NCBI GenBank assembly: GCA_029881255.1
Contig: JAOUMY010000010.1
Coordinates: 7,319-71,318, forward strand
DNA length: 64,000 nucleotides
Origin: Gammaproteobacteria bacterium
Lineage (GTDB): Bacteria > Pseudomonadota > Gammaproteobacteria > S012-40
Reading direction: 5' to 3'
How positions within the stretch are numbered: the stretch's first letter is position 1; each line of letters starts with the position of its first letter. The notes beneath the pieces are model-generated. The model searched no databases and was not told the DNA's origin. It worked only from the letters and a program-made list of their open reading frames with translations. The translations under genes and the position numbers were made by a program. This document shows, piece after piece, positions 41,989-57,532 of the stretch.

Positions 41989-42022
41989 CTAATTGACGGT
42001 CGCAAACTCTCAGCCACTAAGC

Positions 42023-42595
42023 ATGAGTCTATTTAACAAGCCCAGCACAAACAAACAGTTCGAAACACACATCAGACCGCATTTGGCTGATCTGTATCGG
42101 CTGGCCTTTCGTTTGACCGGTACGCGAGAGGATGCAGAAGACCTGGTGCAGGAGATGGTGCTCAAAGTCCATAAAGGACGTCACAAGCTACAAGAGCTTG
42201 ATAATCCCCGTACCTGGTTGGCGAAAGTAATGTATCGCATGTTTGTTGATGAATATCGCCGCGCGCAACGGCAGCCCGTACACAGTCTTGAGCAAGATGT
42301 AGAAGAATCAGAAATCCAATCAGTTTCGGTAGTTGATGCCGAGGAGTTAATCCAGCAACGACAACTTGTCGAACTGGTTGGCCGAGCTATTCAAATGTTG
42401 AGCGACGAGCATCGCATATTGATACTGATGTTCGAAGTAGAAGGGTATTCGCTTGCTGAAATGCAAGAGATTCTTGAGCTACCTCTGGGTACGTTGAAAT
42501 CCAGATTACATCGCGCGCGTCATCGGTTGCGCGAAATATTAGAAATTCACGGAACCTTTTCTGAAGCGTCCACGTGTAAGGAGCAGAGGGTTTAA
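42023..42595 (+). CDS. ECF (group IV) RNA polymerase sigma factor
   Basis: Region 2 (…LADLYRLAFRLTGTREDAEDLVQEMVLKV…) and region 4 HTH (…LSDEHRILILMFEVEGYSLAEMQEILELPLGTLKSRLHRARHRLR…). ATG at 42023; track ORF starts at an upstream TTG (41993). Confidence 0.8.
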   Translation: MSLFNKPSTNKQFETHIRPHLADLYRLAFRLTGTREDAEDLVQEMVLKVHKGRHKLQELDNPRTWLAKVMYRMFVDEYRRAQRQPVHSLEQDVEESEIQSVSVVDAEELIQQRQLVELVGRAIQMLSDEHRILILMFEVEGYSLAEMQEILELPLGTLKSRLHRARHRLREILEIHGTFSEASTCKEQRV

Positions 42596-42597
42596 AA

Positions 42598-43281
42598 ATG
42601 AGCTGCGATTCAATCAAAGATGTGATTATCGACTATGTTGGCGGACAACTGGACAGCGATAACATGGTACGGATTGAAAATCATATTAGTGATTGTGCTC
42701 AGTGTCAGCAAAGGGTTTTGAGGGAACGCGAAATTCGTAGAGCCTTGAGTGAACAGCCGACCGATGCTCCAGATAGTGAGTTTTTCGACAGGATAATGGA
42801 TGACATTGTCCGCAGTTCTGGAGGGCACAAGCATTTTGGGTTTTGGAACGGATTTGCTACAGCAATAGCGGCAGCACTATTCGCCTGGACCGTATTTACA
42901 CCGGCAACCTTAGTCAATACGGAGAACAGCGAATTAACTCAAGCTGTTGTGACACTGAACGCGCAAGTCGATCAGTTGAAAAATGTTCGGATATCATTCG
43001 ACTCTCCAGCGGATTTTGAACAAGTCAGTATGTCCTTATCTCTACCAGATCATGTGGAACTGGTTGGGTATGCTGGCGAACGAGAACTAACGTGGACAAC
43101 GACAATAAGCAAAGGAATAAATATATTAACTTTACCTATTATGGTTAAACATGAAGGAAAAGGGGTGCTGTACGCCACTGTGAGTCGCGCAGGTAAAACA
43201 AAAGTGTTTACCATCAATCTCGATGCGACTGCCAGACAGGAGACATTAATCGATGTCTCGATTAAAAACTTCAGTGTTTGA
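42598..43281 (+). CDS. Zinc-binding (ZAS-type) anti-sigma factor, single-pass membrane protein
   Basis: Starts 3 nt after the sigma gene; HxxxCxxC motif (ENHISDCAQCQ); TM helix FATAIAAALFAWTVFTPA; ~130-aa periplasmic domain. Confidence 0.7.
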   Translation: MSCDSIKDVIIDYVGGQLDSDNMVRIENHISDCAQCQQRVLREREIRRALSEQPTDAPDSEFFDRIMDDIVRSSGGHKHFGFWNGFATAIAAALFAWTVFTPATLVNTENSELTQAVVTLNAQVDQLKNVRISFDSPADFEQVSMSLSLPDHVELVGYAGERELTWTTTISKGINILTLPIMVKHEGKGVLYATVSRAGKTKVFTINLDATARQETLIDVSIKNFSV

Positions 43282-43300
43282 AAGTTACAGGGGAAGACAC

Positions 43301-44218
43301 ATGATGAAGCACACTAATTTAAATACTTTTTTCTTTGCGATGATAGGCGCGTTTTTTCTGAGTCCGGTTTCGGCGCTGGAGACGGCAGATGTCGAAGAGA
43401 TCAGCGTAAGCGTAATCGAAAGCGCTCAAGATGGAATTAAAGAATTCCGTGAACTTGCATTGCCTGCACGAGCATCGACTAGTGCTACTGAACATGCCAA
43501 AGGTTTGGAAAAAGCCAATGATGTGCGCACACGCAATGCGGAAAGATTCAACAGTCGAACAGACGACATGGAAGATGGTGTTGATACTGCGGCGACTCAG
43601 GCTGAAGAACGTAAAGAGGCGGCTATGGCAAAAGCCGCAGCAGCAAAAGCTGCCGGATTGGCAAAGGCTGAAGCAGCAAAAAATCGTGCTGAAGAACAAC
43701 GTGTCCGCGGTCAGGAGCGTGCTGAATTGGCGAAGGAACAGGCAGCTGAAGGTAGAGAGCTTGGTCAGGCCCGCGCCGAAGAGGCTCGACAGAAGCGTGA
43801 GGATGCTGAGGAGATCGCTACAGTCGTGAAGGAACAAGCAGAAACTGCCAAGGCGGCTGCACAGGATCATAAAGCTGCGGCGATGGAAATCGCAGAAACG
43901 GCCAAGGAGCAGGCTGGTGCGAACGCTGATGCAGCGAAGGACGCAGCAGAAGAGCATCGCGCAATAGCCAGTGAAGTTGCCGACCAGGCTCAAGCAATGG
44001 CAGACGATGCGAAAACCAATGCGGATGCTGCCAACGCAATTGCGGAAGAGGCCAAAGGAAATGCAGATGCGGCTAAAGCAAATGCTGACGCAGCCAAAGC
44101 CGCCGCTGGAGACGCACAGGCAAACGCAGATGCAGCCAAGGCCGCTGCGCAAGAAAAGAAAGAACAGGCTCAGACGCGCGCAGACAACGCAAAGAACAAT
44201 CGATTTTCGGCCAACTAG
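43301..44218 (+). CDS. Periplasmic Ala/Glu/Lys-rich low-complexity repeat protein (LEA-/apolipoprotein-like amphipathic helices)
   Basis: RBS AGGGGAAG then ATG 43301; signal MMKHTNLNTFFFAMIGAFFLSPVSA|LE; the rest is (A/K/E/D)-rich with degenerate repeats (…AKAAAAKAAGLAKAEAAKNRAEEQ…, …NADAAKANADAAKAAAGDAQANADAAKAAAQEKKEQ…). The long antisense ORF 43319-44152 is a repeat shadow. Confidence 0.65.
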   Translation: MMKHTNLNTFFFAMIGAFFLSPVSALETADVEEISVSVIESAQDGIKEFRELALPARASTSATEHAKGLEKANDVRTRNAERFNSRTDDMEDGVDTAATQAEERKEAAMAKAAAAKAAGLAKAEAAKNRAEEQRVRGQERAELAKEQAAEGRELGQARAEEARQKREDAEEIATVVKEQAETAKAAAQDHKAAAMEIAETAKEQAGANADAAKDAAEEHRAIASEVADQAQAMADDAKTNADAANAIAEEAKGNADAAKANADAAKAAAGDAQANADAAKAAAQEKKEQAQTRADNAKNNRFSAN

Positions 44219-44325: not shown

Positions 44326-45606
44326 ATGTATTTTAGGGCTAGCATGCTCGCCATGATGCTAACAGGGATGTTTGGGTTTGCCAGTGCCCAGGGGTCAGAA
44401 GACCCGGATTACTTCCGCCTGGGCATAGACGCGTTCAAAAACAAGCAATATGCGCAGGCGATCGAACTGATGCGACTTGCGCGTGAATCAGGTGTTGATG
44501 ACGAAATCTTGGCCTTCAATCTCGGCTCCGCCTTATACCGTTTGCAGGACTATCCGTCTGCGCTCGACGAATTCTCACGTATTTCGACAAACTCCCCTCT
44601 ATTTCCTCGCGTTGAATTCAATCTGGCGTTGATCGCTGTAAAACGTGACAAACTGGATGAGGCGCGTGAGATATTTGTGCGCCTTGAGTCGCAAAACTTA
44701 CCGACACTTTCAGCGATGGCGAGAGAAATGATAATGCGTATTGACGGGGAGCAGAGTCAGTCTGTAGGAACGCATTATCTTTATGTTAGCGTCAGTGGCG
44801 GTATTGAAGATAAGACGCTAGAACCGGAAACAGGCACGCCGGGAGAAGAGACTAATGTGTTCTCCAATATATTGCTACTCGGGTCGACATCCATACTGCC
44901 ATCCCTTATTCGTCACGCCAGTGCCGAAGTCACGATGTTTGGTTTGGTGAACATGCGGCATCAAGAATACGATATCGATATGTTAAATGTGGATCTGGAG
45001 AAGTCCTTTCGCTTTTCAAACGTGTCATTAAAAATTGCACCAGGCGTTGGCGCTATGGGGATGGGCTACAAGCCGTATAGTGGAGACTTGCATATTGGAA
45101 CGGAAGCGAAAATTTCGATCGCAGATATCCTTGATATAAAACCAAGGTATAGTTTTTCGCGTATACAGCACATGTCGGACAATTCTGCGGTTTCCGGGAC
45201 TCAACAAAAAGTCGGTATTCAAACACAATCCGATTTGGAAGAAATACGGCTGCAAGCAGATGTCGTACTTGAGTCCAATAATCGTAATGATACTTCAGAC
45301 ACAACATATCGTATCTATTCACCGAAACGTATTACGGCCCAAGTTGATATTCAATTATTTCGCGAAAGACGGGCATCGCCGAAGTTTATGTTGGAATGGC
45401 GCATAAGTGACTATCCAGCAGTCTCTCACGAGAATCAGCGCAGAGACCAGCGAATCAGGTTCAGGAATGTATCAAATATAAAAATAAATCAGTGGTTAAC
45501 TGCAGTTGCCGATGTCTCGTACACAGAGAATAGCTCATCTCCAAAGACTTCTTTCTCATATAATAGATGGGAGTTTGTTCTCGGGCTCGAGGGAATGTAT
45601 TACTGA
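44326..45606 (+). CDS. Outer-membrane protein: N-terminal periplasmic TPR region + C-terminal beta-barrel (architecture like Slam/DUF560 surface-lipoprotein translocators)
   Basis: Signal MYFRASMLAMMLTGMFGFASA|QGS; ~130 aa of TPR-like helices (…YAQAIELMRLARESG…LGSALYRLQDYPSALDEF…); then ~290 aa of alternating-hydrophobic beta pattern ending …WEFVLGLEGMYY (terminal aromatic). Confidence 0.45.
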   Translation: MYFRASMLAMMLTGMFGFASAQGSEDPDYFRLGIDAFKNKQYAQAIELMRLARESGVDDEILAFNLGSALYRLQDYPSALDEFSRISTNSPLFPRVEFNLALIAVKRDKLDEAREIFVRLESQNLPTLSAMAREMIMRIDGEQSQSVGTHYLYVSVSGGIEDKTLEPETGTPGEETNVFSNILLLGSTSILPSLIRHASAEVTMFGLVNMRHQEYDIDMLNVDLEKSFRFSNVSLKIAPGVGAMGMGYKPYSGDLHIGTEAKISIADILDIKPRYSFSRIQHMSDNSAVSGTQQKVGIQTQSDLEEIRLQADVVLESNNRNDTSDTTYRIYSPKRITAQVDIQLFRERRASPKFMLEWRISDYPAVSHENQRRDQRIRFRNVSNIKINQWLTAVADVSYTENSSSPKTSFSYNRWEFVLGLEGMYY

Positions 45607-45611: not shown

Positions 45612-46964
45612 CTATGGTTCGCCGTGTTTGGTTTCCACCTGGATACCTATTTTTTTCAGGAAAGGTGTCGGTAATATACCCCCAGCGCTGACGATAACGG
45701 CTTGGTTTGGAATTTCCATGACTTCGCCTTCCTGTTCGATAACAACAGAGTCTTCTTTTATTTCTTTCACATTGGAATTGAGAAGTACGCTTAACCGTCC
45801 TTCGGCTTCCTGGGCAGCGACTTTTTCACGATTTTTTTCTGCCGCGCGACTAAAGGCATTGCTACGATAGGAGAGGGTGACGGTGCTTCCCTGTTCTTCT
45901 GCGATACTCGTTGCGGCTTCCAGCGCACTGTTACCACCACCCACCACCAGCACATGCATTCCCTTGTACTGTTCCGGGTCAATGAGGTTATATACGACTT
46001 TCGATTGTTGTTCTCCCGCGACGCCGAGCTTCCGTGGTGAGCCGCGTCGACCAATGGCAAGTAGTACCGCCTTAGTTTCGTATTCACCGTTGGTGCTTTT
46101 TACCAAATAGCCGCCACCGGGCAGAGGTGTAATATTTTCCATGCGCTCCTGGTAGTGGATCTGGACACCGGTTCTTTGCTCTACAGCGTTCCAAAACTCG
46201 AGCAAGGCTTCTTTGTGAGTCTGGTTTATTTTAATCTTTCCGACAATGGGTAACTCCATCGGCTGAGTCATAACCAGTTTACCGCGAGGAAAGTTAAAAA
46301 CGGTTCCGCCAAGAGAGTCCTGCTCGATCGTCACGTAGCGTAAGCCAGATTCGAGTGCGCCCAGGCTTGCAGAAAATCCCGCTGGACCTGCCCCCACGAT
46401 GACGACATCAATTTCCGGTCCGCTAACCGAAGGTAAATATTGCTTGATGTAATCCATTGCTTCTCGCCCCTGAGTCACGGCATTACGTATTAGTCCCATG
46501 CCGCCAAGTTCTCCCGCGATAAACAGGCCTTGCATATTGGTTTCGAAATTGGGCTTGAGTGTTGGGATCTCTACACCGCGTTTTTCTGTGCCAAAAACCA
46601 GAGTGATTGCATCAAGAGGACAGGCAGCTTTACACGCGCCGTGCCCTATGCAATGTGTGGGATTAATTAGTTTCGCTTTTTCTTCGATTAGCCCTAGCAC
46701 GCCACCTTCAGGGCAGGCGGTAACACAGGCTCCACAGCCTATGCATACATTGGGATCAATTATGGGATGTAGAGATGCGGGTTCCGTCAAACCGGCTTCT
46801 TGAACCTTGATATAGGTTTCCAGGCTTTGCTCACTGACGGTGTCACGGCCACGTTTATAGATATAAAAGATGATCGCGATGGGAACGCCGTAAATAAGCG
46901 CATCAACAACATAGGTAGTGAAGGTGGTCCAGATTATGGTGATGAAATCGAAAATTATCTGCAT
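45612..46964 (-). CDS. Membrane-anchored 2x[4Fe-4S] ferredoxin domain fused to FAD/NAD(P)-binding oxidoreductase (thioredoxin-reductase-like fold)
   Basis: N-terminal TM segment (MQIIFDFITIIWTTFTTYVVDALIYGVPIAIIFYIY). Two CxxCxxCxxxCP motifs (CIGCGACVTACP, CIGHGACKAACP). Dinucleotide-binding motifs VVIVGAGPAGFSASL and VLVVGGGNSALEAATSIA. ATG at 46964; track's TTG start at 47018 has no RBS. Confidence 0.65.
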   Translation of the reverse strand: MQIIFDFITIIWTTFTTYVVDALIYGVPIAIIFYIYKRGRDTVSEQSLETYIKVQEAGLTEPASLHPIIDPNVCIGCGACVTACPEGGVLGLIEEKAKLINPTHCIGHGACKAACPLDAITLVFGTEKRGVEIPTLKPNFETNMQGLFIAGELGGMGLIRNAVTQGREAMDYIKQYLPSVSGPEIDVVIVGAGPAGFSASLGALESGLRYVTIEQDSLGGTVFNFPRGKLVMTQPMELPIVGKIKINQTHKEALLEFWNAVEQRTGVQIHYQERMENITPLPGGGYLVKSTNGEYETKAVLLAIGRRGSPRKLGVAGEQQSKVVYNLIDPEQYKGMHVLVVGGGNSALEAATSIAEEQGSTVTLSYRSNAFSRAAEKNREKVAAQEAEGRLSVLLNSNVKEIKEDSVVIEQEGEVMEIPNQAVIVSAGGILPTPFLKKIGIQVETKHGEP

Positions 46965-47043
46965 ATAGGGATCAATATATAACCATTTGGCTTGGACATG
47001 GCGGACAAAGAAGTCCAAATGGAGTAATAACTGGTGCGACCTT

Positions 47044-47060
47044 GCAAATCATATATTTGC
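47044..47060. promoter_or_regulatory. Perfect palindrome GCAAAT-CATAT-ATTTGC in the divergent promoter region of the cytochrome locus (candidate operator)
   Basis: 6-bp arms with 5-bp spacer at 47044-47060, inside a 360-bp AT-rich intergenic region between the divergent oxidoreductase gene and the membrane-protein/cytochrome genes. Confidence 0.3.
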
Positions 47061-47382
47061 GTATCCGAAAAATTCCTTATGTCATGCCCGTTGTAAATTG
47101 TATCGGCTTTTTTCATCATAGAATCAAATAAAAAAACAATAATCTGCGTTTGTGGGGAGTCACTAACCTGCGTTGCCATTGGATATTCAATCCAGTCTAA
47201 ATCGATTCAATGCAACGTGTTACCTGCTGGCTCATCTAACTCATTGTTTTTAGTGTTCTTAATAATAAAGACTGTTGGACTGCTTTTTCAATCGAAAAAC
47301 GGATTCAAATTATTTACCGGGGGACCGATAAGAATATTAACCTCCTAATAATAATGAAAAAATACGCGGGAAGGGGACAGAC

Positions 47383-48378
47383 ATGGGAATACTTACAGAC
47401 TTGCCTGAAGCAGGCAAGATTTTGGCGCGTCTGAAATTTATAAGACGTAACGCAGGCAAGTCCGGATCGGGGGAAGGGCGAGCGAGTAGTGTTAAAGAGG
47501 ATGCGATACCTGAAACCGTGATACAGGAAGACAACAAAAAGTTTGGCCGTGAGGCGAAAATCGTTACCACAATATTTGCGGTGCTTGTCGCCGTACTATT
47601 GGTAACGTGGTATAGCTGGCGGGATGAGTATCTGATGAATGCTGAGGATCTGATCTATAACATGGGTCTGATCGGTGGCATCATGATGCTGTTGCAATTC
47701 GTCTATTCCATGCGCAAGCGTGTCGACAAGATGCGCCGTTGGGGCAATCTCCGTTTTTGGTTTCTGTTTCATACCTTCATTGGTTTGTCAGCGCCAACCA
47801 TCATTGTTATCCACAGCCGATTTAGTATTGAGTCCGTCAATGGAGGCGTCGCGTTTTTCTCGATGTTGCTAGTGGTGATTAGCGGTATCGTTGGGCGCTA
47901 CCTCTACAGCCAGGTCAACTTTGATCTAAAAACGGCGCGTCAGGAATTGAAGGAATTGCATCAAACCGTACATGCGGGCGTGTTACAGCACCATCCTGAT
48001 CAACTTCGCGAAATCGAGAATATGCTGAAGCTGTTTATGCTGCACGCATTCGCTAATTCGCACGGTGTGATTCATGCATTTTCTCGGGCGTTTGGGGTGA
48101 GTATCCGGTCTCGACAGTTGTACTGGGCGCTGATTCAGATGCGCCAGATGTCTGCCCCTGGACGAAACGATGGTGCAACGATGGCAATGGACGGAACGCC
48201 AGTGTTTGACAGGGAAGAGCGACGATTACTCAGGATTTATCTCAAGTCGCTGACAAAACTGGCCCGTTACAATGCTTTTAAACATCTGTTTAGTCTGTGG
48301 CGTATCGGACACGTGCCCGTCATCTATTTACTATTGATTACTGGTTTGGCACATGTATTAGCCGTGCACATGTATTGA
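47383..48378 (+). CDS. Integral membrane protein (5 TM), conserved His residues in TM3 and TM5; candidate b-type cytochrome/quinone-interacting subunit
   Basis: RBS GGGAAGGGGA before ATG. TM helices IVTTIFAVLVAVLLVTWY, LIYNMGLIGGIMMLLQFVY, FWFLFHTFIGLSAPTIIVIH, VAFFSMLLVVISGIVGRYLY, HVPVIYLLLITGLAHVLAVHMY. No Pfam-level assignment possible by eye. Confidence 0.5.
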   Translation: MGILTDLPEAGKILARLKFIRRNAGKSGSGEGRASSVKEDAIPETVIQEDNKKFGREAKIVTTIFAVLVAVLLVTWYSWRDEYLMNAEDLIYNMGLIGGIMMLLQFVYSMRKRVDKMRRWGNLRFWFLFHTFIGLSAPTIIVIHSRFSIESVNGGVAFFSMLLVVISGIVGRYLYSQVNFDLKTARQELKELHQTVHAGVLQHHPDQLREIENMLKLFMLHAFANSHGVIHAFSRAFGVSIRSRQLYWALIQMRQMSAPGRNDGATMAMDGTPVFDREERRLLRIYLKSLTKLARYNAFKHLFSLWRIGHVPVIYLLLITGLAHVLAVHMY

Positions 48379-48391
48379 ACAGGAGACATTA

Positions 48392-49966
48392 TTGGGGCTT
48401 GCGCGTTATTACGGGATTCTGGCGTTAATGTTTACTCTCTTTACATGGCATGGTCAGGCAATGGCCGGTCCAATGGACCGCTTCGAACGCATGGTTATGC
48501 CGGGTAAACTGAGTACGGGGCACGTCAAGTACGAAAAAGACTGCAACAACTGCCATAAACCTTTCGAAAAAGGGGCGCAAAGCGACCTCTGTCTTGATTG
48601 CCACAAGAAGGTCAATAAAGACGTTGTTGATAAAAAGGGTTTTCATGGTCGCGTCCCCAATATCGATACCCGAAAATGTAGTGATTGTCATAAAGAACAT
48701 CGTGGCAGGGATGCCGACATCGTAGCGTTTGATCGCGATACCTTCGATCATGATCGTTCAGACTTTAAGTTAAAAGGTTCTCACACCCGTTTAGGTTGTG
48801 TGAATTGCCATGATCCTAAAACGAAATACCGGGATGCAGGACAGGGATGTGTAGATTGTCATAAGACTGACGATGCCCACGAAAAGCGCTTGGGCGAAAA
48901 ATGCGGCAATTGTCATATTGAAACCGTTTGGGGTGAAGCGCATTACGATCACGACAAAACCAAATTCAAACTGGAGGCAAATCACAAACATGTTGCCTGT
49001 ATCGACTGCCATCCCAACCAGCGATACGAAGAAACACCGAAGGGTTGTTACACATGTCACCAGCTACGCGATGTCCATGAAGGGAATAATGGTAAGAAGT
49101 GTGAGTCCTGCCATAATGCCTATTTCTGGAACGAGATCAAATTTGATCACAATAAAGATACCAAGTATGAACTCGAAGGACGGCATGTTACTGTCGATTG
49201 CCAGTCATGTCATCGCGGCGACGTTTACAAGAAAATTGGCAAGGAGTGTATTAAGTGCCATAAGAAAGAGGATGCCCATCGGGGGTTGTTTGGCGAAAAG
49301 TGCCATGATTGCCATATTTCTCGCTCCTGGTCTAGAGCGACCTTTAATCACAATAAAGACACCAAGTTTGAATTGATTGGTGCACATCGTAAGGTTGATT
49401 GCGTCGCGTGTCATCGTGCGGACGTTTATGCCGATTTGAAAAAAGATTGCTATGCCTGTCACCGTAAGAATGATGTGCACGAAGGGCAGGAAGGAAAGGA
49501 TTGTAAGCATTGTCACAATGAAAAGGGTTGGACTAGTGAAGTGTTTTTCGATCATGATCTGACACGTTTCCCACTGCTAGACAGTCATGCGGTAACTGCA
49601 TGCGAGGAATGTCATTTAACGCCCGCGTTTAAGGATACCGATACCCAATGTTTTTCATGCCACAAAAAGGATGATGAAAAAATACACAAGTTGCGTTTGG
49701 GTGAGAACTGTAGTCTGTGTCATAACTCTAATGACTGGAAGAAATGGTTTTTTGATCACGACAAACAAACAGATTATAAATTGACAGGCGGGCACAAAGG
49801 GCTGGATTGTCATGCCTGTCATACCAAACCTGTAAAGAAAGAAATCAAGCTGAGTGATAAGTGCGTGGATTGTCATGAGCAGGATGACTACCACCACGGA
49901 GCCTTTGGTCGTGAATGCGCCAGATGCCACATAACAGAATCCTTTAAGAAAGTGATTATGAATTGA
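48392..49966 (+). CDS. Periplasmic multiheme cytochrome c, 21 CxxCH motifs arranged as seven tandem c7-type triheme modules
   Basis: Signal MGLARYYGILALMFTLFTWHGQAMA|GP. 21 CxxCH counted. Recurrent module FDH(D/N)K(T/D)xF(K/E)LxGxHxxVxCxxCH … CxxCH…D(A/V)H…G…CxxCH resembles Geobacter PpcA/c7 and the GSU1996-type c7 polymer. Confidence 0.85.
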   Translation: MGLARYYGILALMFTLFTWHGQAMAGPMDRFERMVMPGKLSTGHVKYEKDCNNCHKPFEKGAQSDLCLDCHKKVNKDVVDKKGFHGRVPNIDTRKCSDCHKEHRGRDADIVAFDRDTFDHDRSDFKLKGSHTRLGCVNCHDPKTKYRDAGQGCVDCHKTDDAHEKRLGEKCGNCHIETVWGEAHYDHDKTKFKLEANHKHVACIDCHPNQRYEETPKGCYTCHQLRDVHEGNNGKKCESCHNAYFWNEIKFDHNKDTKYELEGRHVTVDCQSCHRGDVYKKIGKECIKCHKKEDAHRGLFGEKCHDCHISRSWSRATFNHNKDTKFELIGAHRKVDCVACHRADVYADLKKDCYACHRKNDVHEGQEGKDCKHCHNEKGWTSEVFFDHDLTRFPLLDSHAVTACEECHLTPAFKDTDTQCFSCHKKDDEKIHKLRLGENCSLCHNSNDWKKWFFDHDKQTDYKLTGGHKGLDCHACHTKPVKKEIKLSDKCVDCHEQDDYHHGAFGRECARCHITESFKKVIMN

Positions 49967-52242
49967 TGTTGTCGATACGGAAAATTTATATCGTCATGTG
50001 TGTATTGCTTGCTGGACTGGGTCCAGTGCCAGTTTACGCAAGTACGATATTGACATCGGTGGATTACTCAAGTGACGAAAACTCCATCTATATCAAAGCG
50101 AATTTTGGCGACATCGTGAACTATGAAAAACACTTTCCGCGCAGCCGTGGGAAAATAATTCAAATTCAGATCAGCATGCCAGGTAAGGTTTTTACTGAAA
50201 CACAATTAAAGCGTCGAGAAACCATTGAGCCGGATGAAAATGCACCATCGGTGATACGTGACATCATATACGAAGGAAACGTTAGAGGTGGTCCGTATCT
50301 GGTTTTACGGTTTTCCTCTGTGGTGACGTTTAAACTCGACGAAAGCAAGGGCTCCAAGGTATTGACGGTAACAATTGATCGCAAAGAGCTCGAGGCGTTA
50401 CAGACGCCAGCTGTAACACAGCAGCCAAGCACGGATGTTAGTGAAGAAGAAAGTCGTGCAACCAGTCTAATGGATCAGGGGCGCAGAGCCTTAACTATGG
50501 GACAGAACAGTGAAGCCATTCTTTTCTTCAGTGACATACTGGGCATGCCGGAAAGTCGTTTTACGCAGGATGCCCGTGAGTATCTTGGATTGGCGCGTGA
50601 GCGAAATGGGCAATTGGATCTCGCAAAAAAGGAATATGAAGCCTATCTCAAAAGTTACGAAAAGAGTCCAAAGGCTAACACCGTCAGGCAGCGCTTGATG
50701 ACGCTAGAGGCGCGTATCGTACAGATGGAACGCCGGCTGAAGGACGGTAAGCGAACCGGAACCACTTCAGTTGCTGCGGCTAGACCTGCAGATTTATTTG
50801 GCCGCGTGGCTATTCAATCGTATAACGCAGGGCTGCGAAAAGAGGGTGAATCAACACCCGATTACGCTCAAGGGCGTATTCTGGCATTTACCGATCTCAA
50901 TCAGCGTTGGCGTGACAAGGACAAAGATGCGCGACTTAGTTTTAGCGGAACCATGGATTACGATCTAATCCGTTCTCGTTCCTCGTCAACAACATTGCAG
51001 GACACAGAAAAGCCCCGATACGAAGCACGTATACGCTCCCTATTCGGTGAATACAAAGGGCGAACAAATAATATACACGGCAGTTTCGGGCGTCAGTCTG
51101 TTAACAGTGGTGGTGTACTCGGTCGTTTCGACGGCGCGATGTTGGGGTATCAACTCAAGAATAAACTATCCGTTTATGGTGTTGTCGGTTTGCCGGTCGA
51201 CTATGAAGACAATCTCACCCCGCAAACCAATAAGCCCATGTTCGGCGGACGCCTAGACGTCAATGAGATCGCTAAGTATTGGAAGGCGTCGGTCTACGGT
51301 ATTCAGCAACAAGTTGATGGTATTCTCGAAAGACGGGCCGTCGGTGGAGATTTGCGCTATTTCTTCGAGAACAAGGTTTTTTACTCGCTGGTGGATTACG
51401 ATGCTTCATATGGAGTCTGGAATTTTCTCACTGGGCACTATGGCTGGCAGGTGAACAAGCGCCTGAAACTGGATGTGCATGCAGACCGGCGTCGTTCTCC
51501 TGTGATGTTGACAAGCAATGCGTTGCGTCGGCTTTCGGTTTTAACCAGTGCTTCAGATAAGAATAAAGCCATGGGAGAACTAGATATATCCGACGAGGCT
51601 GTATTCAACAGACTGACCAATGAGTCAACAATTAAAGATCTTCTAGACGCCAAAGTTTCCGAAGCGACTATCCGACAACTGGCGCTTGATCAAACCGGAG
51701 AATCGTCGTTATATACGGTAGGCATGAACTACGAACTTCGCAAAGATATCAGCCTTATCGCAAATCTCACTATATCAAGTTATGAGGCTGGTAAAGCGCA
51801 AGATATAGATGCTACTGAGGAAATGCCTGAGGAACCCGATCCTAAAGCGATCATTGAATCCCCGTTTTTAAAGGGCGATGTTGATATGATAGGTTCTGTC
51901 CAATTGGTGCGGCGCAATATGTACCGCGAGCGGGACGTCGTGCTTGCCGGATTGAGTTTTTCCATTAACGAACGCAATAAGCGTTATACCGGTAATGTCG
52001 CATTGCGCACACCTTATAAAGAAAAGTGGTGGTTGGATTTGCGTGGACGGGCGATCTATTCAGACAACATTGAACATGGTACTCAGGCGCTTAAGGTCTC
52101 GCCCACGGCGCGTACAGAATACCGCTATGACCGCCGCCTGACCTTTGAGTTGGAGGTGGGGGCGGACTATACCCGATCTACCGGTGCTAACGAGGATTTG
52201 TTTTGGTTTTTTGGCAATGCCGGCTTTCGCTACATGTTCTAA
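49966..52242 (+). CDS. Large outer-membrane beta-barrel (porin component of a porin-cytochrome conduit, MtrB/PioB-like role) with N-terminal soluble domain and TPR-like segment
   Basis: ATG overlaps cytochrome stop (TGATG). Signal MLSIRKIYIVMCVLLAGLGPVPVYA|ST. An N-terminal ~110-aa domain; an alpha-helical TPR-like stretch (…EAILFFSDILGMPESRFTQDAREYLGLARERNGQLDLAKKEYEAYLKSY…); then >450 aa of amphipathic beta-strand pattern ending …FGNAGFRYMF (C-terminal Phe). Confidence 0.6.
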   Translation: MLSIRKIYIVMCVLLAGLGPVPVYASTILTSVDYSSDENSIYIKANFGDIVNYEKHFPRSRGKIIQIQISMPGKVFTETQLKRRETIEPDENAPSVIRDIIYEGNVRGGPYLVLRFSSVVTFKLDESKGSKVLTVTIDRKELEALQTPAVTQQPSTDVSEEESRATSLMDQGRRALTMGQNSEAILFFSDILGMPESRFTQDAREYLGLARERNGQLDLAKKEYEAYLKSYEKSPKANTVRQRLMTLEARIVQMERRLKDGKRTGTTSVAAARPADLFGRVAIQSYNAGLRKEGESTPDYAQGRILAFTDLNQRWRDKDKDARLSFSGTMDYDLIRSRSSSTTLQDTEKPRYEARIRSLFGEYKGRTNNIHGSFGRQSVNSGGVLGRFDGAMLGYQLKNKLSVYGVVGLPVDYEDNLTPQTNKPMFGGRLDVNEIAKYWKASVYGIQQQVDGILERRAVGGDLRYFFENKVFYSLVDYDASYGVWNFLTGHYGWQVNKRLKLDVHADRRRSPVMLTSNALRRLSVLTSASDKNKAMGELDISDEAVFNRLTNESTIKDLLDAKVSEATIRQLALDQTGESSLYTVGMNYELRKDISLIANLTISSYEAGKAQDIDATEEMPEEPDPKAIIESPFLKGDVDMIGSVQLVRRNMYRERDVVLAGLSFSINERNKRYTGNVALRTPYKEKWWLDLRGRAIYSDNIEHGTQALKVSPTARTEYRYDRRLTFELEVGADYTRSTGANEDLFWFFGNAGFRYMF

Positions 52243-52284
52243 GCAGGACTATAATTTGGCTAAAACAGGTCGATAATTACAGTT

Positions 52285-52734
52285 ATGAATAGCGGATTTC
52301 TTAATTGGAAGAACATCATACTGGGTACGATAGCCATTCTGACTGTCGTGTCCGGTGTAAAAATGATGCAGACTCCGTCCAATATCCTGGCTGATGTGCT
52401 GGTGGCCGAACACCGAGGCAGCCTGGAGTTACAAATCAAGTTTAATATCCCTGTTCGTTATGAGGATCATACGCCCAAAAACTCCGGGCATATTGTCCAG
52501 ATCAAGGTGCGTCCGGTCAGTTTTAGCGATACAGGTAAGAACGAATACTTGGGCAGCGAAACGATTCTGCCTGGCTTTGCGGCACAGGTACCGATTACTG
52601 ATGTCGCCTATGAAGGCGCTGTGCCTGGCGGCCCTCTACTTACCCTGCGTTTTAGCAAGCCTGTGACGTTTACTGTTACAGAAGATGCTGATTTCTCAAG
52701 TATTATCCTTCATCTTCGACGAAGCGACAGCTAA
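52285..52734 (+). CDS. Small membrane-anchored protein paralogous to the N-terminal domain of the upstream beta-barrel
   Basis: N-terminal TM/signal anchor (NIILGTIAILTVVSGV). Residues 35-149 align with barrel residues ~30-140 (shared …I.QI…ETI.P…I.D..YEG.V.GGP.L.LRFS..VTF…E… pattern). Confidence 0.5.
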   Translation: MNSGFLNWKNIILGTIAILTVVSGVKMMQTPSNILADVLVAEHRGSLELQIKFNIPVRYEDHTPKNSGHIVQIKVRPVSFSDTGKNEYLGSETILPGFAAQVPITDVAYEGAVPGGPLLTLRFSKPVTFTVTEDADFSSIILHLRRSDS

Positions 52735-52949
52735 CGCCTTCGGTCTCATTTCTCAGTGTACTACTTGGTTTTAATATGTGATTAACCTCACCTCTCTATC
52801 CTTGTCGGTTGCTGTTCCCTGATTGGTTTTCAACGCTTTGGTGGGTGGGGTGAACAGCAAGACATGTCATCAACTGCGCTTTGGTGGGAGCAGAAAGTGA
52901 TGCCACGATTCGAAAACCATAGGCCTGTATACAAGACTGAAGTGAAGAC

Positions 52950-55900
52950 ATGGGGAAGGGGACGACTTTGTTCACCGAATTGGTGAAGCGCCCGCATTTC
53001 GGCTTTGCGCTTTACCCGCCTTTAGGCTTTATTTTTCTCCGAAAACTGTTAGTGGCAGTTGCAATGCCTGTTTTTTTGGCCTTGCTTATGTCGCTTGCTC
53101 CAGGCGTTGTATCGGCCGACGAAATCGTTGTTCCTGCGGATTTTGACCACAATGCCACTGGCTTTCCACTACAAGGCCAGCATGAACGCATCCGCTGCGA
53201 ATTTTGCCATAGAAACGAAGTTTTCCGCGGCACGCCAGTCAAATGCGATGCGTGCCATAACGATATCATCGCCCCCGGAAAACACGCCAAGCACATCCCT
53301 ACGCTGGAGCAATGTAGCGACTGCCATGTGCCCTCGGGGTTTGATATCTCCGCGCGCATGGATCACTCCCGTATTACGCGGCCTTGTGGCGCCTGCCACA
53401 ACGGCAATCTTGCCCAAGGTAAAACCGTCAATCATATACCCACCAATGAAACCTGTGATACCTGCCATACCACAGGCATTGCATGGAGCCCAAGTCTGTT
53501 CGATCACGTTGGTATTGTTGATGGGTGTCTGTTATGTCACAACAGCGTAAATGCGCGCGGCAAAGGCATGGGCCACATACTGGTGCAGGATGAATGTCAG
53601 GCCTGTCACACGACGCAGTTGTGGAGTGTGCCGTCCAATAGCGTCAATCATAACTTTGTAATCGGAAGCTGTGAGAGCTGTCATAACGGTGCCGTTGCCT
53701 CAGGAAAACCGGCTACGCATATCCCAACCACAGATTCCTGTGATACTTGCCACAAAGACATCGGCCGTAGTTGGCATAGTCAGGCAGGCTTTACAGAATT
53801 GCATGCGATGTTAACCGAAGGATGTCCCTTGTGTCATACCGGGGTTAGCGCGCGCGGAAAAACTATTGATCACATATTGTCGAGCGAACGCTGTGAGTCG
53901 TGTCATACCCCCACCAGTAGTTCATTTTTGGTGTTGCGTAATCCCAAACCAGACCACGCAGAAATCGTAGGGAGCTGCGTCAACTGTCATAACAACAGTC
54001 GCTCGGTTGGTAAGAATATCACTCACATCAACAGTACGAATCAATGTCAAGCCTGCCACGAAATCGTGACTTTCAGCATTGTTCCGAAAGTGGATCACAA
54101 TGAAGTCCTGGGAGTGTGCGGTGCTTGCCATAATAACGTGATTGCAACCGGTAAGGGGCCGAACCACATAGCGACACAAGAGGCGTGTGATGTATGCCAT
54201 GCAACCACGGCCTGGTTACCTACACAGTTCGATCACTCAAATTTTGATACCAGTAATTGCCAGAGTTGTCACAATGGCTTCCAGGCTACGGGCAAACAAA
54301 CGGGACACATCGCATCGACAGAAAAATGCGATGCCTGCCATACCACAGGTGTGTCGTGGACGGTATTGTTAGTAGATCACACGCAGACGCTTGGTGATAC
54401 CTGCGAGACGTGTCACAACAATGTTCTCGCTCGTGGTAAAGGACCTACGCATATCATTACGCAACAGGACTGCGGAATATGTCACACCCCCAACACTCCC
54501 TGGTTACAGAATGCGTTTGATCACCAGGGCGTAAGTGGTAATTGCGCGACATGTCATAACGGCTTGCTTGCTCGCGGCAAGTCACAGTCACACATATCGT
54601 CAACGGATGTGTGTGAAGCGTGTCATGCAATTGGAAACTGGGCCCCGTTGACGGTGGATCATACAGAAGTTGTAGGTGGGTGTGTCAATTGTCACAACGG
54701 CGCAATATCCACTGGAAAAAATAACGGACATATCAGTACCAGTAATGAATGTGGCGCTTGCCATAGTACGACGCAATGGAAACCTGCCGTACGCGTTGAT
54801 CACAATGAGGTGCAGGGAAAATGCGAAAGCTGTCACAATGGAAAAGTGTCACAGGGTAAAGATCTGCAGCACATCCTTTCCACAGGTGAATGTAACGCGT
54901 GTCACAATACTACGCAGTGGACTCCCGCCATTACTGTTGATCATCATGAGGTGATTGGCGAATGTGCCACGTGTCACAATGGCACGATTGCGCGAGGAAA
55001 GGGGGCGCAACATGTGCCCACGACTGAAAATTGTTCCGCATGTCACTCGACTACATTGTGGCAGCCAGTCACCAAGGTCGACCACTCTGAAATCGCTGAA
55101 AGCACAAGTTGCTTTGAATGTCACAACGGTGTATTGGCTCAAGGTAAATCCACGCTGCATATCGCTTCAACAAATGCTTGCGAAGCGTGTCACCTGGTCG
55201 CCGCGTGGATGCCTGCAAAATTTGTCGATCATAATGAGGTTTTGGGCAATTGTGTTACTTGTCACAACGGTGTTGTGACTAGAGGAAAATCTGCGTACCA
55301 CGTGAAAAGCACTGATGACTGTGACGGATGCCATAGCGTTACGGAGTGGTCGCCTGCAAAATTTGTCGATCATGAATTCATTCTTGGAACATGTGACGTT
55401 TGTCATAATGGCAGCATTGCAAGAGGCAAAGGTACTCTCCACTTTAATACGTCGAATACGTGCGAAGCCTGTCATTCAGTTACGCTTTGGACGCCAGTGA
55501 TTACAGTGGATCATAGTCAGGTGATTGGAAGTTGTTTTTCCTGCCACAACAACAATCCTGTACCTGGCAAAAGCAGACTACATATTGCGACCACTGATCT
55601 TTGCGAGGCCTGTCATAACACCACATCGTGGACGCCGGCAACAACAGTGGATCACAGTGAAGTTATTGGTGAATGCCAGAGCTGTCACGGACAGGGAGGG
55701 CGCGCCGCGGGTAAGAATCCTGGACACATGCAAACGACAGATGTGTGTGGAGCGTGTCATTTCACAACAGCATGGAAGCCAGTAGTGAGTGTCGATCACA
55801 AACAAGTTCTGGGGGAGTGCGAGACTTGCCACAATGGAGATATTGCCATTGGAAAAAATCCTGCGACGCATATTCTATCTTCCGATCAGTGTTCTGCCTG

Positions 55901-56498
55901 TCATATCACCAGTACCTGGATAACCATACGTGTCGATCATACGCAGGTCTTGGGGGCATGTGTTGATTGCCACAATATGCCTGTGCAACATATCAATACC
56001 ACCAATCTGTGCGTTGAATGTCACTCCACGACACGTTGGAGTCCAGTCGTACTAGTGGATCATGCTCAGGTGAATGGCGTGTGTTCCTCCTGCCATAATT
56101 TACCCGCAGGACATATTGCGTCGACCAATGTTTGTGATGCCTGCCATAACACCACGCGCTGGCGGCCAACAGTGGCTGTAGATCATGCCCAGGTATTGGG
56201 ATCGTGTGCCGATTGCCATTTTCTGCCGGCCTTTCACATTACCGCCACGACAGCATGTGATGCTTGTCATAGAACCGAATCCTGGGTTCCTTTTACTGTT
56301 GATCACAATGAAGTATTGGGATCATGTGAAAGCTGTCACCCAGCACCCGGTGACCACCTCGCCGCTGGCGTAACAAACAATTGTCAGAACTGCCATTCAA
56401 CAACGACCTGGACAGGTGCTACTAGTCCACTTCCCGGGGCAGCTGGCGCGAGCGTGTCGGGAGTATCGGCAACTGCGGCTGGTGGTGGTCATATGTAA
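52950..56498 (+). CDS. Giant multiheme cytochrome c with 47 CxxCH motifs, built from ~27-aa tandem repeats (candidate extracellular/outer-surface electron conduit)
   Basis: 1182-aa ORF; signal peptide (alt. start ATG 53064: MPVFLALLMSLAPGVVSA|DE). 47 CxxCH counted by eye. Near-periodic unit C-x-x-C-H-(N/T)-x5-7-W-x-P-x4-(V/F)-D-H-x-(E/Q)-V-x-G-x-C-x-x-C-H-N-G-x2-A-x-G-K-x3-H-I-x-(T/S)-x3-C. No TM segment after the signal. Confidence 0.85.
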   Translation: MGKGTTLFTELVKRPHFGFALYPPLGFIFLRKLLVAVAMPVFLALLMSLAPGVVSADEIVVPADFDHNATGFPLQGQHERIRCEFCHRNEVFRGTPVKCDACHNDIIAPGKHAKHIPTLEQCSDCHVPSGFDISARMDHSRITRPCGACHNGNLAQGKTVNHIPTNETCDTCHTTGIAWSPSLFDHVGIVDGCLLCHNSVNARGKGMGHILVQDECQACHTTQLWSVPSNSVNHNFVIGSCESCHNGAVASGKPATHIPTTDSCDTCHKDIGRSWHSQAGFTELHAMLTEGCPLCHTGVSARGKTIDHILSSERCESCHTPTSSSFLVLRNPKPDHAEIVGSCVNCHNNSRSVGKNITHINSTNQCQACHEIVTFSIVPKVDHNEVLGVCGACHNNVIATGKGPNHIATQEACDVCHATTAWLPTQFDHSNFDTSNCQSCHNGFQATGKQTGHIASTEKCDACHTTGVSWTVLLVDHTQTLGDTCETCHNNVLARGKGPTHIITQQDCGICHTPNTPWLQNAFDHQGVSGNCATCHNGLLARGKSQSHISSTDVCEACHAIGNWAPLTVDHTEVVGGCVNCHNGAISTGKNNGHISTSNECGACHSTTQWKPAVRVDHNEVQGKCESCHNGKVSQGKDLQHILSTGECNACHNTTQWTPAITVDHHEVIGECATCHNGTIARGKGAQHVPTTENCSACHSTTLWQPVTKVDHSEIAESTSCFECHNGVLAQGKSTLHIASTNACEACHLVAAWMPAKFVDHNEVLGNCVTCHNGVVTRGKSAYHVKSTDDCDGCHSVTEWSPAKFVDHEFILGTCDVCHNGSIARGKGTLHFNTSNTCEACHSVTLWTPVITVDHSQVIGSCFSCHNNNPVPGKSRLHIATTDLCEACHNTTSWTPATTVDHSEVIGECQSCHGQGGRAAGKNPGHMQTTDVCGACHFTTAWKPVVSVDHKQVLGECETCHNGDIAIGKNPATHILSSDQCSACHITSTWITIRVDHTQVLGACVDCHNMPVQHINTTNLCVECHSTTRWSPVVLVDHAQVNGVCSSCHNLPAGHIASTNVCDACHNTTRWRPTVAVDHAQVLGSCADCHFLPAFHITATTACDACHRTESWVPFTVDHNEVLGSCESCHPAPGDHLAAGVTNNCQNCHSTTTWTGATSPLPGAAGASVSGVSATAAGGGHM

Positions 56499-56561
56499 CC
56501 GTTATTATGTGCGGTAGTCTTTTTACTGAGAAAAATTTAGTTAAGTTTTAAGAGGGATGGC

Positions 56562-57329: not shown

Positions 57330-57343
57330 AAAAGGCTTTATTC

Positions 57344-57472: not shown

Positions 57473-57532
57473 ATTCACTGAACTAGCTCGACCTTGTTGG
57501 CAGGATAACAACAAAGATTTTTCGGGGAGTGC

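What the first reader, a model, noticed from the sequence alone, without database searches (positions are those of the whole stretch)
48392..49966. 21-heme cytochrome is a polymer of seven c7-type triheme domains
The 21 CxxCH motifs group into seven ~70-aa units, each with three hemes and the F-D-H-x-K-T-x-F-x-L-x-G-x-H…CxxCH signature of cytochrome c7 (PpcA) and the Geobacter c7-polymer cytochromes. Geobacter polymers such as GSU1996 have four such domains; seven in one chain would be an unusually long periplasmic heme relay. Its length fits a protein that inserts into or spans toward the adjacent porin.
Basis: partly seen in the sequence, partly recalled or inferred. Interest (0 to 1): 0.6.

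Follow-up and report, generated by a model that had tools for sequence, protein, structure and literature searches.

The report
PCC3 periplasmic 21-heme cytochrome wire
This gene encodes a 21-heme cytochrome built from repeated three-heme modules; it belongs to an already described but functionally untested "PCC3" gene cluster proposed to carry electrons across the bacterial cell envelope, and seven modules is the usual short form of the family, not a record.

Summary
ORF 48392..49966 (+) encodes a 524-aa secreted protein with 21 CxxCH motifs in a strict 67-aa, three-heme period. It also has 21 invariant extra histidines, so all hemes are probably bis-His.

Every central module passes Pfam Cytochrome_C7. 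A profile of the modules finds the Geobacter c7-type polymer GSU1996 (3OV0) as the best solved relative (E 1.6e-7). NrfB, NapC/NirT and MtrA-type assignments fail.

Four corrections apply:
- **Boundaries.** This gives six full domains, a c3-like N-terminal cap and a lone C-terminal heme.
- **Specific model.** The Geobacter domain model TIGR04257 is not reached (21 vs 40 bits). The N-terminal hairpin and the His-Met heme are missing, and PpcA itself is not matched.
- **Length.** Seven modules is not unusual. Close homologues carry 21 to 39 hemes, distant ones up to 94, and Geobacter GSU2210 has 27.
- **Known cluster.** The gene sits in a complete PCC3 cluster (He et al. 2017), whose periplasmic cytochrome has a median of 21 hemes.

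It is most likely a periplasm-spanning heme wire. This is a new member of a known, functionally unverified kind. A conserved, sometimes fused, Fe-S flavoprotein neighbour is the most interesting side lead.

The parts
48392..49966 (+). Gene for the 21-heme c-type cytochrome (524 aa plus stop), the periplasmic multiheme cytochrome of a PCC3 cluster
   Evidence: ORF; 21 CxxCH; Pfam Cytochrome_C7 at 88 bits; 100% identical NCBI protein
48392..48466 (+). Predicted Sec signal peptide (aa 1-25, ...GQAMA|GP). No lipobox cysteine and no other hydrophobic segment.
   Evidence: Read from the sequence; hydropathy scan finds no TM segment in the mature part; model helix 2-23. The cleavage site is inferred.
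48500..48712 (+). N-terminal cap (aa 37-107, hemes 1-3): a divergent, c3-like module without the FDH string
   Evidence: Pfam Cytochrom_c3_2 and Cytochrom_CIII match aa 44-107. Profile positions 34-105 align to the dimeric cytochrome c3 1GYO, E 8e-4. The module is position-specific and conserved in all homologues.
48641..49882 (+). Array of six complete c7-type triheme domains (aa 84-497, hemes 3-20). Each reads DDxH-x7-CxxCH / W..FDH..T.F.L.G.H-x4-CxxCH / x11 / CxxCH.
   Evidence: Pfam best stretch 228-291 maps to model positions 7-67. Module profile A2 aligns end to end with all four GSU1996 domains. 55 of 55 modules hit PF14522.
49883..49963 (+). C-terminal tail (aa 498-524) with the lone heme 21 (DDYHHGAFGRECARCH), equivalent to heme I of a truncated eighth domain
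   Evidence: Sequence and unit alignment. H501 is invariant; C509, C512 and H513 are conserved in at least 90% of sequences.
47383..48378 (+). PCC3 inner-membrane protein (331 aa): five TM helices, two WX3HX13H motifs (aa 126 and 306) and SGIVG (aa 167). Putative di-heme b protein.
   Evidence: Motifs and hydropathy match the definition in PMC5566968. It sits immediately upstream of the cytochrome gene in 11 related loci; in one further locus (L006) it lies about 2.6 kb downstream of the cytochrome genes, and in L007 it is fused to the flavoprotein.
49966..52242 (+). Outer-membrane protein (758 aa): signal peptide, about 100-aa N-terminal domain, TPR-like stretch and a C-terminal putative beta-barrel ending ...GFRYMF. 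Its ATG overlaps the cytochrome's TGA stop.
   Evidence: ORF and gene call. Homologous to the large OMP in Gallionella, Burkholderiales, Uliginosibacterium and Nitrospira clusters. The barrel fold itself was not tested.
52285..52734 (+). Small 149-aa protein homologous to the N-terminal domain of the outer-membrane protein
   Evidence: BLASTP 38% identity over 104 aa, E 5e-16. Also present in L002.
52950..56498 (+). Extracellular-type multiheme cytochrome (1182 aa, 47 CxxCH, alternating 23/24 spacing, rich in T, G, A and S)
   Evidence: Pfam Cytochrome_C7, Paired_CXXCH_1 and MtrC/MtrF II-IV. Matches the PCC3 extracellular MHC description.
45612..47018 (-). Divergently transcribed, membrane-anchored 2x[4Fe-4S] plus FAD/NAD(P) oxidoreductase. 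Candidate cytoplasmic partner of the inner-membrane protein; not part of the published PCC3 definition.
   Evidence: Pfam Fer4_10 plus Pyr_redox_3. One N-terminal TM helix. Conserved next to IMP and MHC genes in 9 of 11 loci and fused to the IMP in L007.

Best explanation
The protein is the periplasmic multiheme cytochrome of a PCC3-type porin-cytochrome cluster.

- **Maturation.** After Sec export and Ccm heme attachment it would carry 21 low-spin bis-His c-type hemes. These would lie along one slim chain of about 25 residues per heme.
- **Build.** The chain has a c3-like N-terminal cap, six compact c7-type triheme domains and one terminal heme. The domains are distantly related to those of the Geobacter 'nanowire' cytochrome GSU1996.
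- **Proposed function.** Its most likely job is to act as a fixed electron wire across the periplasm. One conserved end would dock on the di-heme-b inner-membrane protein encoded 14 bp upstream. The other end would enter the large outer-membrane protein encoded by the overlapping downstream gene, where it would meet the 47-heme extracellular cytochrome.
- **Unknowns.** The direction of electron flow (uptake from, or delivery to, extracellular minerals) and the physiological substrate are unknown.

Shown here: the heme motifs, periodicity, conserved ligand histidines, family membership, synteny and modular expansion. Inferred: heme packing, length, docking partners, and the wire function itself.
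For: - **Heme chain.** 21 CxxCH at a 67-aa period. 21 invariant non-motif His in a 46-sequence alignment. A signal peptide and no TM segment.
- **Fold family.** PF14522 at 88 bits. The module profile hits GSU1996 (3OV0) at E 1.6e-7 across all four domains. Other heme-rich structures score far worse with that profile, for example the 16-heme HmcA 1Z1N at E 9.
- **Cluster.** The IMP has 5 TM helices, two WX3HX13H motifs and SGxxG. The downstream OMP ends in F. The 47-heme cytochrome is T/G/A/S-rich. This matches the PCC3 definition, in which the periplasmic MHC has a median of 21 hemes (PMC5566968) and 21/24/27 hemes in Gallionellaceae (PMC9900912).
- **Synteny.** The same gene set occurs around homologues of 41-61% identity in a gammaproteobacterial MAG, Gallionella, a Burkholderiales MAG and Uliginosibacterium.
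- **Coupling.** The TGA/ATG overlap with the OMP gene suggests co-translation.
- **Modular length.** End modules 1-2 and 6-7 are kept in nearly all homologues, while the middle varies by whole triheme modules from 21 to 39 hemes. Same-position modules are 58-65% identical between orthologues, against 24-47% between positions. That fits specific docking ends joined by a length-adjustable middle.
- **Shape.** The AF2 model has mean pLDDT 77.8 and a low pTM of 0.34, as expected for an elongated chain. Published AF2 models of PCC3 cytochromes are 'long and mostly linear'.
Against: - No experiment has shown any function for PCC3.
- In Sideroxydans lithotrophicus ES-1 both PCC3 clusters were down-regulated on Fe(II) (PMC8788666) and poorly detected in proteomes on magnetite (PMC11429942).
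- The barrel fold of the OMP and any contact between these proteins are untested.
- The closest solved relative, GSU1996, is thought to act as a soluble capacitor, not a fixed wire.
Confidence: 0.6

Rival explanations
1. Periplasmic electron capacitor. The cytochrome is a soluble, freely diffusing store of up to 21 electrons, as proposed for GSU1996, and is not a fixed bridge to the porin.
For: The closest solved relative is GSU1996, for which a capacitor role is the prevailing view (PMC10138318). Hoover et al. also mention charge storage for PCC3. There is no membrane anchor.
Against: There is strict gene adjacency with the inner-membrane protein in 11 related loci, and stop/start overlap with the OMP gene. 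Position-specific conserved end modules suggest fixed partners. The two roles are not mutually exclusive.
Confidence: 0.15
2. The chain is itself exported through the outer-membrane protein. It would then form part of the extracellular wire together with the 47-heme cytochrome, while a different carrier crosses the periplasm.
For: Localisation rests only on a signal peptide and on the published prediction. Several related loci in Acidobacteriota, Myxococcota and Ignavibacteria encode two such cytochromes side by side with no recognisable homologue of this OMP within the flanks fetched.
Against: Its composition is K/D-rich (K 11.8%, D 10.1%), unlike the T/G/A/S-rich extracellular partner. The invariant pairing with the inner-membrane protein gene argues for an inner-membrane contact.
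Confidence: 0.07
3. The modules belong to a different multiheme family (MtrA/DmsE, NrfB or NapC/NirT) with a different heme packing, and the c7 resemblance is only CxxCH composition.
For: Weak sub-threshold hits exist: the DmsE model at 17 bits and HmcA at 16 bits; Paired_CXXCH_1 in 12 of 55 modules and NNT in 1 of 55. No structural superposition could be obtained.
Against: PF14522 is passed by all 55 modules. GSU1996 scores E 1.6e-7 with all three hemes of each domain in register, against NrfB at E 0.53, NrfH at 0.13 and no MtrA hit. TIGR04257 is the most frequent NCBIfam match among modules, 16 of 55.
Confidence: 0.04

Closest known systems
PCC3 periplasmic multiheme cytochrome (e.g. Slit_0869 of Sideroxydans lithotrophicus ES-1, and the Uliginosibacterium gangwonense and Amphritea atlantica homologues; He et al. 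2017, PMC5566968)
   Same: The cluster matches: a WX3HX13H inner-membrane protein, a 21-heme secreted cytochrome, a large OMP and a very heme-rich extracellular cytochrome. The ratio is about 25 aa per heme. Identity is 41% (E 1.4e-215) to the Uliginosibacterium protein and 45% to 21-heme Gallionella proteins with the same neighbours.
   Different: Only details differ. The gene order here is IMP, MHC, OMP, small protein, exMHC, whereas Gallionella and Burkholderiales loci place the exMHC before the OMP. The extracellular partner has 47 hemes here against 25 in Gallionella. The host is an uncultured gammaproteobacterium.
Geobacter sulfurreducens c7-type polymer ('nanowire') cytochromes GSU1996 (12 hemes, PDB 3OV0), GSU0592 and GSU2210 (27 hemes)
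   Same: A single chain of tandem triheme domains. It is the best solved sequence relative of the module profile (E 1.6e-7), with hemes I, III and IV aligned in all four domains. Both are periplasmic, with a similar residue-to-heme ratio (25 vs 26.5).
   Different: The period is 67 aa against about 81 aa. The first ~18 positions of the domain model, which in GSU1996 hold the FSHxxH segment, are absent (TIGR04257 alignment starts at position 19 of 75). One distal His has moved into the I-III loop, where GSU1996 has FDL and this protein has FDH. A conserved His replaces the Met region, so no His-Met heme is expected. TIGR04257 is below cutoff. The protein is encoded with a porin, an inner-membrane protein and an extracellular cytochrome, which is not part of the description of GSU1996 as a soluble periplasmic cytochrome.
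MtrA/MtoA decaheme cytochromes of MtrCAB/MtoAB porin-cytochrome complexes
   Same: The proposed role is the same: a slim multiheme chain threaded into an outer-membrane barrel to hand electrons to or from an extracellular cytochrome. This is analogy, from established knowledge of MtrCAB.
   Different: No detectable family relationship: TIGR03508 scores 17 bits against a 192 cutoff, and no MtrA chain appears in either PDB profile search. This protein has twice as many hemes and a triheme rather than a pentaheme module.
Triheme cytochrome c7 (PpcA, PDB 1OS6/2LDO)
   Same: Same Pfam family (PF14522) and all-bis-His ligation.
   Different: PpcA is a single 71-aa domain. Direct profile matches are not significant (E 1.4-9; NF043011 hit by 1 of 55 modules). 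The order of free His and CxxCH motifs differs: c7 has H,H,I,H,III,IV, whereas this module has H,I,H,H,III,IV.

Membership tests
PCC3 porin-cytochrome cluster, periplasmic MHC (He et al. 2017) | Adjacent conserved ~300-aa inner-membrane protein with 5 TM helices, WX3HX13H on TM3 and TM5, and SGxxG on TM4 | tested here: met
   ORF 47383..48378: TM segments at 54-79, 90-108, 125-143, 147-175 and 308-331. WFLFH..x13..H at aa 126, WRIGH..x13..H at aa 306, SGIVG at aa 167. Definition.
PCC3 porin-cytochrome cluster, periplasmic MHC (He et al. 2017) | Secreted cytochrome with a very high heme count (median 21) and a low residue-to-heme ratio, made of repeats | tested here: met
   21 CxxCH, 25.0 aa per heme, 67-aa repeat.
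PCC3 porin-cytochrome cluster, periplasmic MHC (He et al. 2017) | Adjacent large outer-membrane beta-barrel (porin) gene | tested here: inconclusive
   The 758-aa protein has a signal peptide and a C-terminal ...GFRYMF. It is homologous to the OMP in Gallionella, Uliginosibacterium and Nitrospira clusters. No Pfam barrel family matched, and no structure prediction was run for it.
PCC3 porin-cytochrome cluster, periplasmic MHC (He et al. 2017) | Adjacent extracellular MHC, rich in T/S/A/G, with tens of hemes | tested here: met
   1182 aa, 47 CxxCH, T 10.1%, G 8.1%, A 8.0%, S 7.4%.
PCC3 porin-cytochrome cluster, periplasmic MHC (He et al. 2017) | Sequence homology to the periplasmic MHC of an organism listed as PCC3-bearing | tested here: met
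   Uliginosibacterium gangwonense protein P0032, E 1.4e-215, 41% identity, with IMP, exMHC and OMP neighbours. The organism is named among PCC3 hosts.
Pfam PF14522 Cytochrome_C7 (cytochrome c7 and related) | Score at or above the gathering threshold of 24.8 bits | tested here: met
   Whole protein 88 bits with 5 stretches. The isolated module scores 31.7 bits, and 55 of 55 modules match at E <= 0.01.
NCBIfam TIGR04257 nanowire_3heme (c7-type triheme domain of Geobacter polymer cytochromes) | Score at or above the 40-bit cutoff | tested here: not met
   21.5 bits for the protein and at most 20.8 bits for single modules. The alignment covers only model positions 19-75.
NCBIfam TIGR04257 nanowire_3heme (c7-type triheme domain of Geobacter polymer cytochromes) | One His-Met coordinated heme per domain | tested here: not met
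   No conserved Met in any module. Three invariant free His per module instead. The His aligns next to the Met-bearing segment of GSU1996. The feature is described. This was tested by sequence only.
NCBIfam TIGR04257 nanowire_3heme (c7-type triheme domain of Geobacter polymer cytochromes) | c7 heme-core geometry (hemes I, III, IV) and linear inter-domain heme stacking | not testable with these tools
Cytochrome c7 proper (PpcA; NF043011) | Significant match to PpcA-type sequences | tested here: not met
   PpcA chains score E 1.4-9 with the module profile. NF043011 is hit by 1 of 55 modules at E 0.004.
MtrA/DmsE decaheme family (TIGR03508) | Score at or above 192 bits | tested here: not met
   17.1 bits. 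No MtrA structure appears among the PDB profile hits.
NrfB / NapC-NirT families | Significant profile match | tested here: not met
   NrfB 2OZY at E 0.53 and NrfH 2J7A at E 0.13. Pfam Cytochrom_NNT is hit by 1 of 55 modules.

The most novel reading that the evidence does not exclude
PCC3 may not be a quinone-linked conduit as published. It may instead be a NOX/ferric-reductase-like, NAD(P)H-linked trans-envelope circuit. In this reading, a membrane-anchored cytoplasmic 2x[4Fe-4S]/FAD protein feeds, or is fed by, the di-heme-b inner-membrane protein. That protein hands electrons directly to the conserved end of the 21-heme wire. The wire's variable middle (7 to 13 or more triheme modules) would act as a ruler matched to the envelope width of the host. 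The flavoprotein gene is divergent from the IMP gene here. It is conserved next to IMP and MHC genes in 9 of 11 loci across five phyla, and it is fused to the IMP in one Myxococcota genome.
Probability: 0.25. Interest if true: 0.65.

Novelty: new member of a known kind. Interest (0 to 1): 0.3.

Why it matters
PCC3 clusters are widespread in iron-oxidising and other Proteobacteria, and related clusters occur in other phyla. They encode some of the most heme-rich proteins known, yet they have no solved structure and no demonstrated function.

This instance adds nothing categorically new, but the analysis sharpens the picture in three ways:
- It ties the repeating unit to the solved GSU1996 c7-type domain and defines the correct domain boundaries and likely axial ligands. 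That helps anyone planning domain-wise expression or heme-aware modelling.
- It shows conserved end modules with an expandable middle, which gives a testable 'docking ends plus ruler' model.
- It flags a conserved Fe-S flavoprotein partner that is absent from published PCC3 models. If real, this would change the proposed inner-membrane electron entry or exit point.

Tried and rejected
- **Single-sequence PDB search** gave only a marginal hit to 3OUQ (E 0.089). Profiles were needed.
- **Foldseek against the PDB** returned nothing at E <= 10 for the full AF2 model. The single-module model (pLDDT 83) gave only noise: HpaB at TM 0.13. Heme-scaffold folds modelled without hemes carry too little secondary structure for this method.
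- **Promoter and terminator scan** of 46900..58800 found no more sites than shuffled sequence, so operon limits rest on gene spacing alone.
Pfam, TIGR04257 and GSU1996 alignments all place that string between hemes I and III.
- **MtrA/DmsE, NrfB, NapC/NirT and HmcA assignments** were considered and rejected on score.
- **Recent internal duplication** was considered and rejected. Modules group by position across orthologues: 58-65% identity at the same position against 24-47% between positions.
Full report
**What is there**

The ORF at 48392..49966 (+) is real. It starts at TTG, 7 nt after a GGAGA ribosome-binding site. It is deposited with the same start at NCBI as 'MAG: cytochrome C [Gammaproteobacteria bacterium]'. 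It was also found on a 66-kb contig assembled from run SRR7132271.

The 524-aa product has a Sec-type signal peptide and no other hydrophobic segment. It carries exactly 21 CxxCH motifs with a repeating 33/16/18 spacing. Shuffled versions of the protein contain 0.3 motifs on average and 3 at most. Self-identity peaks at offsets of 67 and 134 residues.
- Units 2-7 are 33-49% identical to each other.
- Six of the seven units carry the FDH...F.L.G.H....CxxCH string.
- Unit 1 is divergent.

**Ligands**

An alignment of the protein with 45 homologues (A1) has all 21 CxxCH motifs conserved. It also has exactly 21 further invariant histidines, three per unit. No methionine is conserved. The simplest reading, by inference, is 21 bis-His low-spin hemes.

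**Which family the module belongs to**

- **Pfam.** Cytochrome_C7 (PF14522) matches the whole protein at 88 bits against a gathering score of 24.8. Cytochrom_c3_2 and Cytochrom_CIII match only the N-terminal unit.
- **Solved structures.** A profile of 55 central modules (A2) searched against all PDB sequences finds the Geobacter dodecaheme cytochrome GSU1996 (3OV0) first, at E 1.6e-7. All four of its c7-type domains align end to end. Its fragments 3OUQ, 3OUE and 1RWJ follow.
- **Specificity.** Other heme-rich structures score orders of magnitude worse with this profile: nine-heme c at 0.003, c3 at 0.03-0.4, NrfH at 0.13, NrfB at 0.53 and 16-heme HmcA at 9. No MtrA chain is hit. The match is therefore not just CxxCH composition.
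- **Per-module checks.** All 55 modules hit PF14522 individually. Among NCBIfam models, the c7-type polymer domain TIGR04257 is the most frequent match (16 of 55). It reaches only about 21 bits against a cutoff of 40, and only over model positions 19-75.
- **PpcA.** It is not significantly matched (E 1.4-9).

The modules therefore belong to the c3/c7 superfamily, and their nearest solved relative is the Geobacter c7-type polymer domain. They form a distinct, more compact subfamily.

**Register**

The Pfam best stretch (aa 228-291 on model positions 7-67), the TIGR04257 alignment and the GSU1996 alignments all agree. They place the c7-type domain as follows:
- W....FDH..T.F.L.G.H-x4-CxxCH is heme III.
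- x11-CxxCH is heme IV.

It aligns with the FDL...YTMLDMEKGKS-CGACH segment of GSU1996. It is not the N-terminal FxHxxH of c7.

In this register the chain has three parts:
- a c3-like N-terminal cap, where hemes 1-3 align with hemes I-III of the dimeric c3 1GYO (E 8e-4);
- six complete c7-type domains (hemes 3-20);
- a lone C-terminal heme.

Compared with GSU1996, the period is 67 rather than about 81 residues. One of the two N-terminal histidines is missing, and a new one (FDH) sits in the I-III loop. A histidine also sits next to the methionine-bearing segment that supplies the His-Met heme in GSU1996.

**Is seven modules unusual? No**

- Among the 120 best homologues, heme counts are 21 (15 proteins), 24 (52), 27 (37), 30, 33, 36 and 39. 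Almost all are multiples of three.
- An exhaustive search of 1.84 billion cluster representatives finds 1003 clusters at E <= 1e-30. It includes proteins with the same spacing pattern and up to 94 CxxCH in 2321 aa.
- G. sulfurreducens itself has the 27-heme GSU2210 (PMC10138318).

**Module architecture**

Assigning each module of each homologue to its most similar window module gives 1-2-[variable 3/4/5-type middle]-6-7 in nearly all proteins. Some also carry extra 6-7 pairs. Among 21-heme orthologues, modules at the same position are 58-65% identical, against 24-47% between positions. The duplication is therefore old, the ends are position-specific, and length changes by whole triheme modules in the middle.

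**Context**

The gene lies in a complete PCC3 cluster as defined by He et al. 2017 (PMC5566968):
- **Upstream (47383..48378).** A 331-aa inner-membrane protein with five TM helices, two WX3HX13H motifs and SGIVG. This is exactly the published signature of the putative di-heme-b protein.
- **Downstream (49966..52242).** Overlapping the stop codon is a 758-aa outer-membrane protein ending in ...GFRYMF.
- **52285..52734.** A 149-aa protein homologous to that protein's N-terminal domain (E 5e-16).
- **52950..56498.** A 1182-aa cytochrome with 47 CxxCH, rich in T, G, A and S.

He et al. report a median of 21 hemes for the PCC3 periplasmic cytochrome. Hoover et al. report 21, 24 or 27 hemes in Gallionellaceae and note that it may span the periplasm (PMC9900912). 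The same gene set surrounds homologues in a related gammaproteobacterial MAG, in Gallionella (21 hemes, 45% identity), in a Burkholderiales MAG (42%), in Uliginosibacterium (41%) and in Nitrospira.

**Mechanism**

The best-supported reading is a fixed heme wire across the periplasm. It would link the inner-membrane protein to the outer-membrane protein and the extracellular cytochrome. From my own knowledge, GSU1996 holds 12 hemes in about 12 nm, and MtrA holds 10 hemes in about 8 nm. On that basis 21 hemes would cover roughly 17-21 nm, which is of the order of a periplasm.

This remains inference for three reasons:
- PCC3 function has never been tested.
- Expression data in Sideroxydans do not link it to Fe(II) oxidation.
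- I could not measure the model or superpose it on any structure.

**Side lead**

A membrane-anchored 2x[4Fe-4S] plus FAD/NAD(P) oxidoreductase (45612..47018, minus strand) sits divergently next to the inner-membrane protein gene. It recurs next to IMP and MHC genes in 9 of 11 informative loci, including Acidobacteriota and Ignavibacteria.

In a Myxococcota genome it is fused to the IMP. That 762-aa protein carries both WX3HX13H motifs, an extra TM helix, Fer4 and Pyr_redox domains. The TM count places the flavoprotein domain in the cytoplasm.

The PCC3 papers I read describe four genes and do not mention it. It suggests a NOX/ferric-reductase-like, NAD(P)H-linked entry or exit point rather than, or besides, the quinone pool. 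It is absent from the Nitrospira and Nitrospinaceae loci.

**Verdict**

The finding is a correct reading of the sequence, and the family guess is largely correct. However, the protein is an ordinary member of the already described PCC3 periplasmic cytochrome family, in its short and common 21-heme form.

Noticed in passing
window 45612..47018 (-); L007 13853..16141; L002-L006, L011, L012, L019: A membrane-anchored 2x[4Fe-4S] plus FAD/NAD(P) oxidoreductase is conserved next to the PCC3 inner-membrane protein and periplasmic cytochrome genes in 9 of 11 loci. In a Myxococcota MAG it is fused to the inner-membrane protein. The PCC3 papers read here do not mention it.
   Followed up: partly
window 52285..52734 (+) and 49966..52242 (+): A 149-aa protein between the OMP gene and the 47-heme cytochrome gene is a paralogue of the OMP's own N-terminal ~100-aa domain (38% identity, E 5e-16). 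The same arrangement occurs in L002. No Pfam or NCBIfam family matched either copy.
   Followed up: partly
window 52950..56498 (+): A 1182-aa cytochrome has 47 CxxCH motifs in a very regular alternating 23/24-residue spacing, i.e. a ~47-aa diheme repeat. It is the extracellular partner of the cluster. The annotated start is probably too far upstream: a signal-peptide-like stretch begins about aa 38.
   Followed up: partly
window 63064..63999 (-), runs towards the window end: A second multiheme cytochrome ORF has 11 CxxCH motifs. It gives only weak sub-threshold matches to the TmcA, DmsE and GSU2203 decaheme models. Its N-terminus may lie beyond the window.
   Followed up: partly
window 41993..44218 (+) and 44326..45606 (+): Just upstream of the cluster lie four genes: an ECF sigma factor, a zf-HC2 anti-sigma-like protein, an alanine- and glutamate-rich 321-aa protein of low sequence complexity, and a 426-aa TPR protein. 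The TPR protein has a weak match to the Slam N-terminal TPR family. These are possible regulators or assembly factors of the cluster.
   Followed up: no
window 56562..58678 (+): Downstream of the 47-heme cytochrome gene are a DUF7282 protein (255 aa) and a BBP2/OmpL-like beta-barrel porin (381 aa). Whether they belong to the system is unknown.
   Followed up: no
P0122 (2321 aa), P0124, P0139, P0121: Metagenomic proteins are built from the same triheme module (spacing 32/16/25) repeated about 26 to 31 times, giving 78-94 CxxCH in one chain. These are among the largest heme counts I am aware of.
   Followed up: no
L017 1..2450 and L019 14534..17743: Cytochrome c maturation (ccm) genes sit directly beside the PCC3-like clusters in the Nitrospira and Uliginosibacterium loci.
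   Followed up: no
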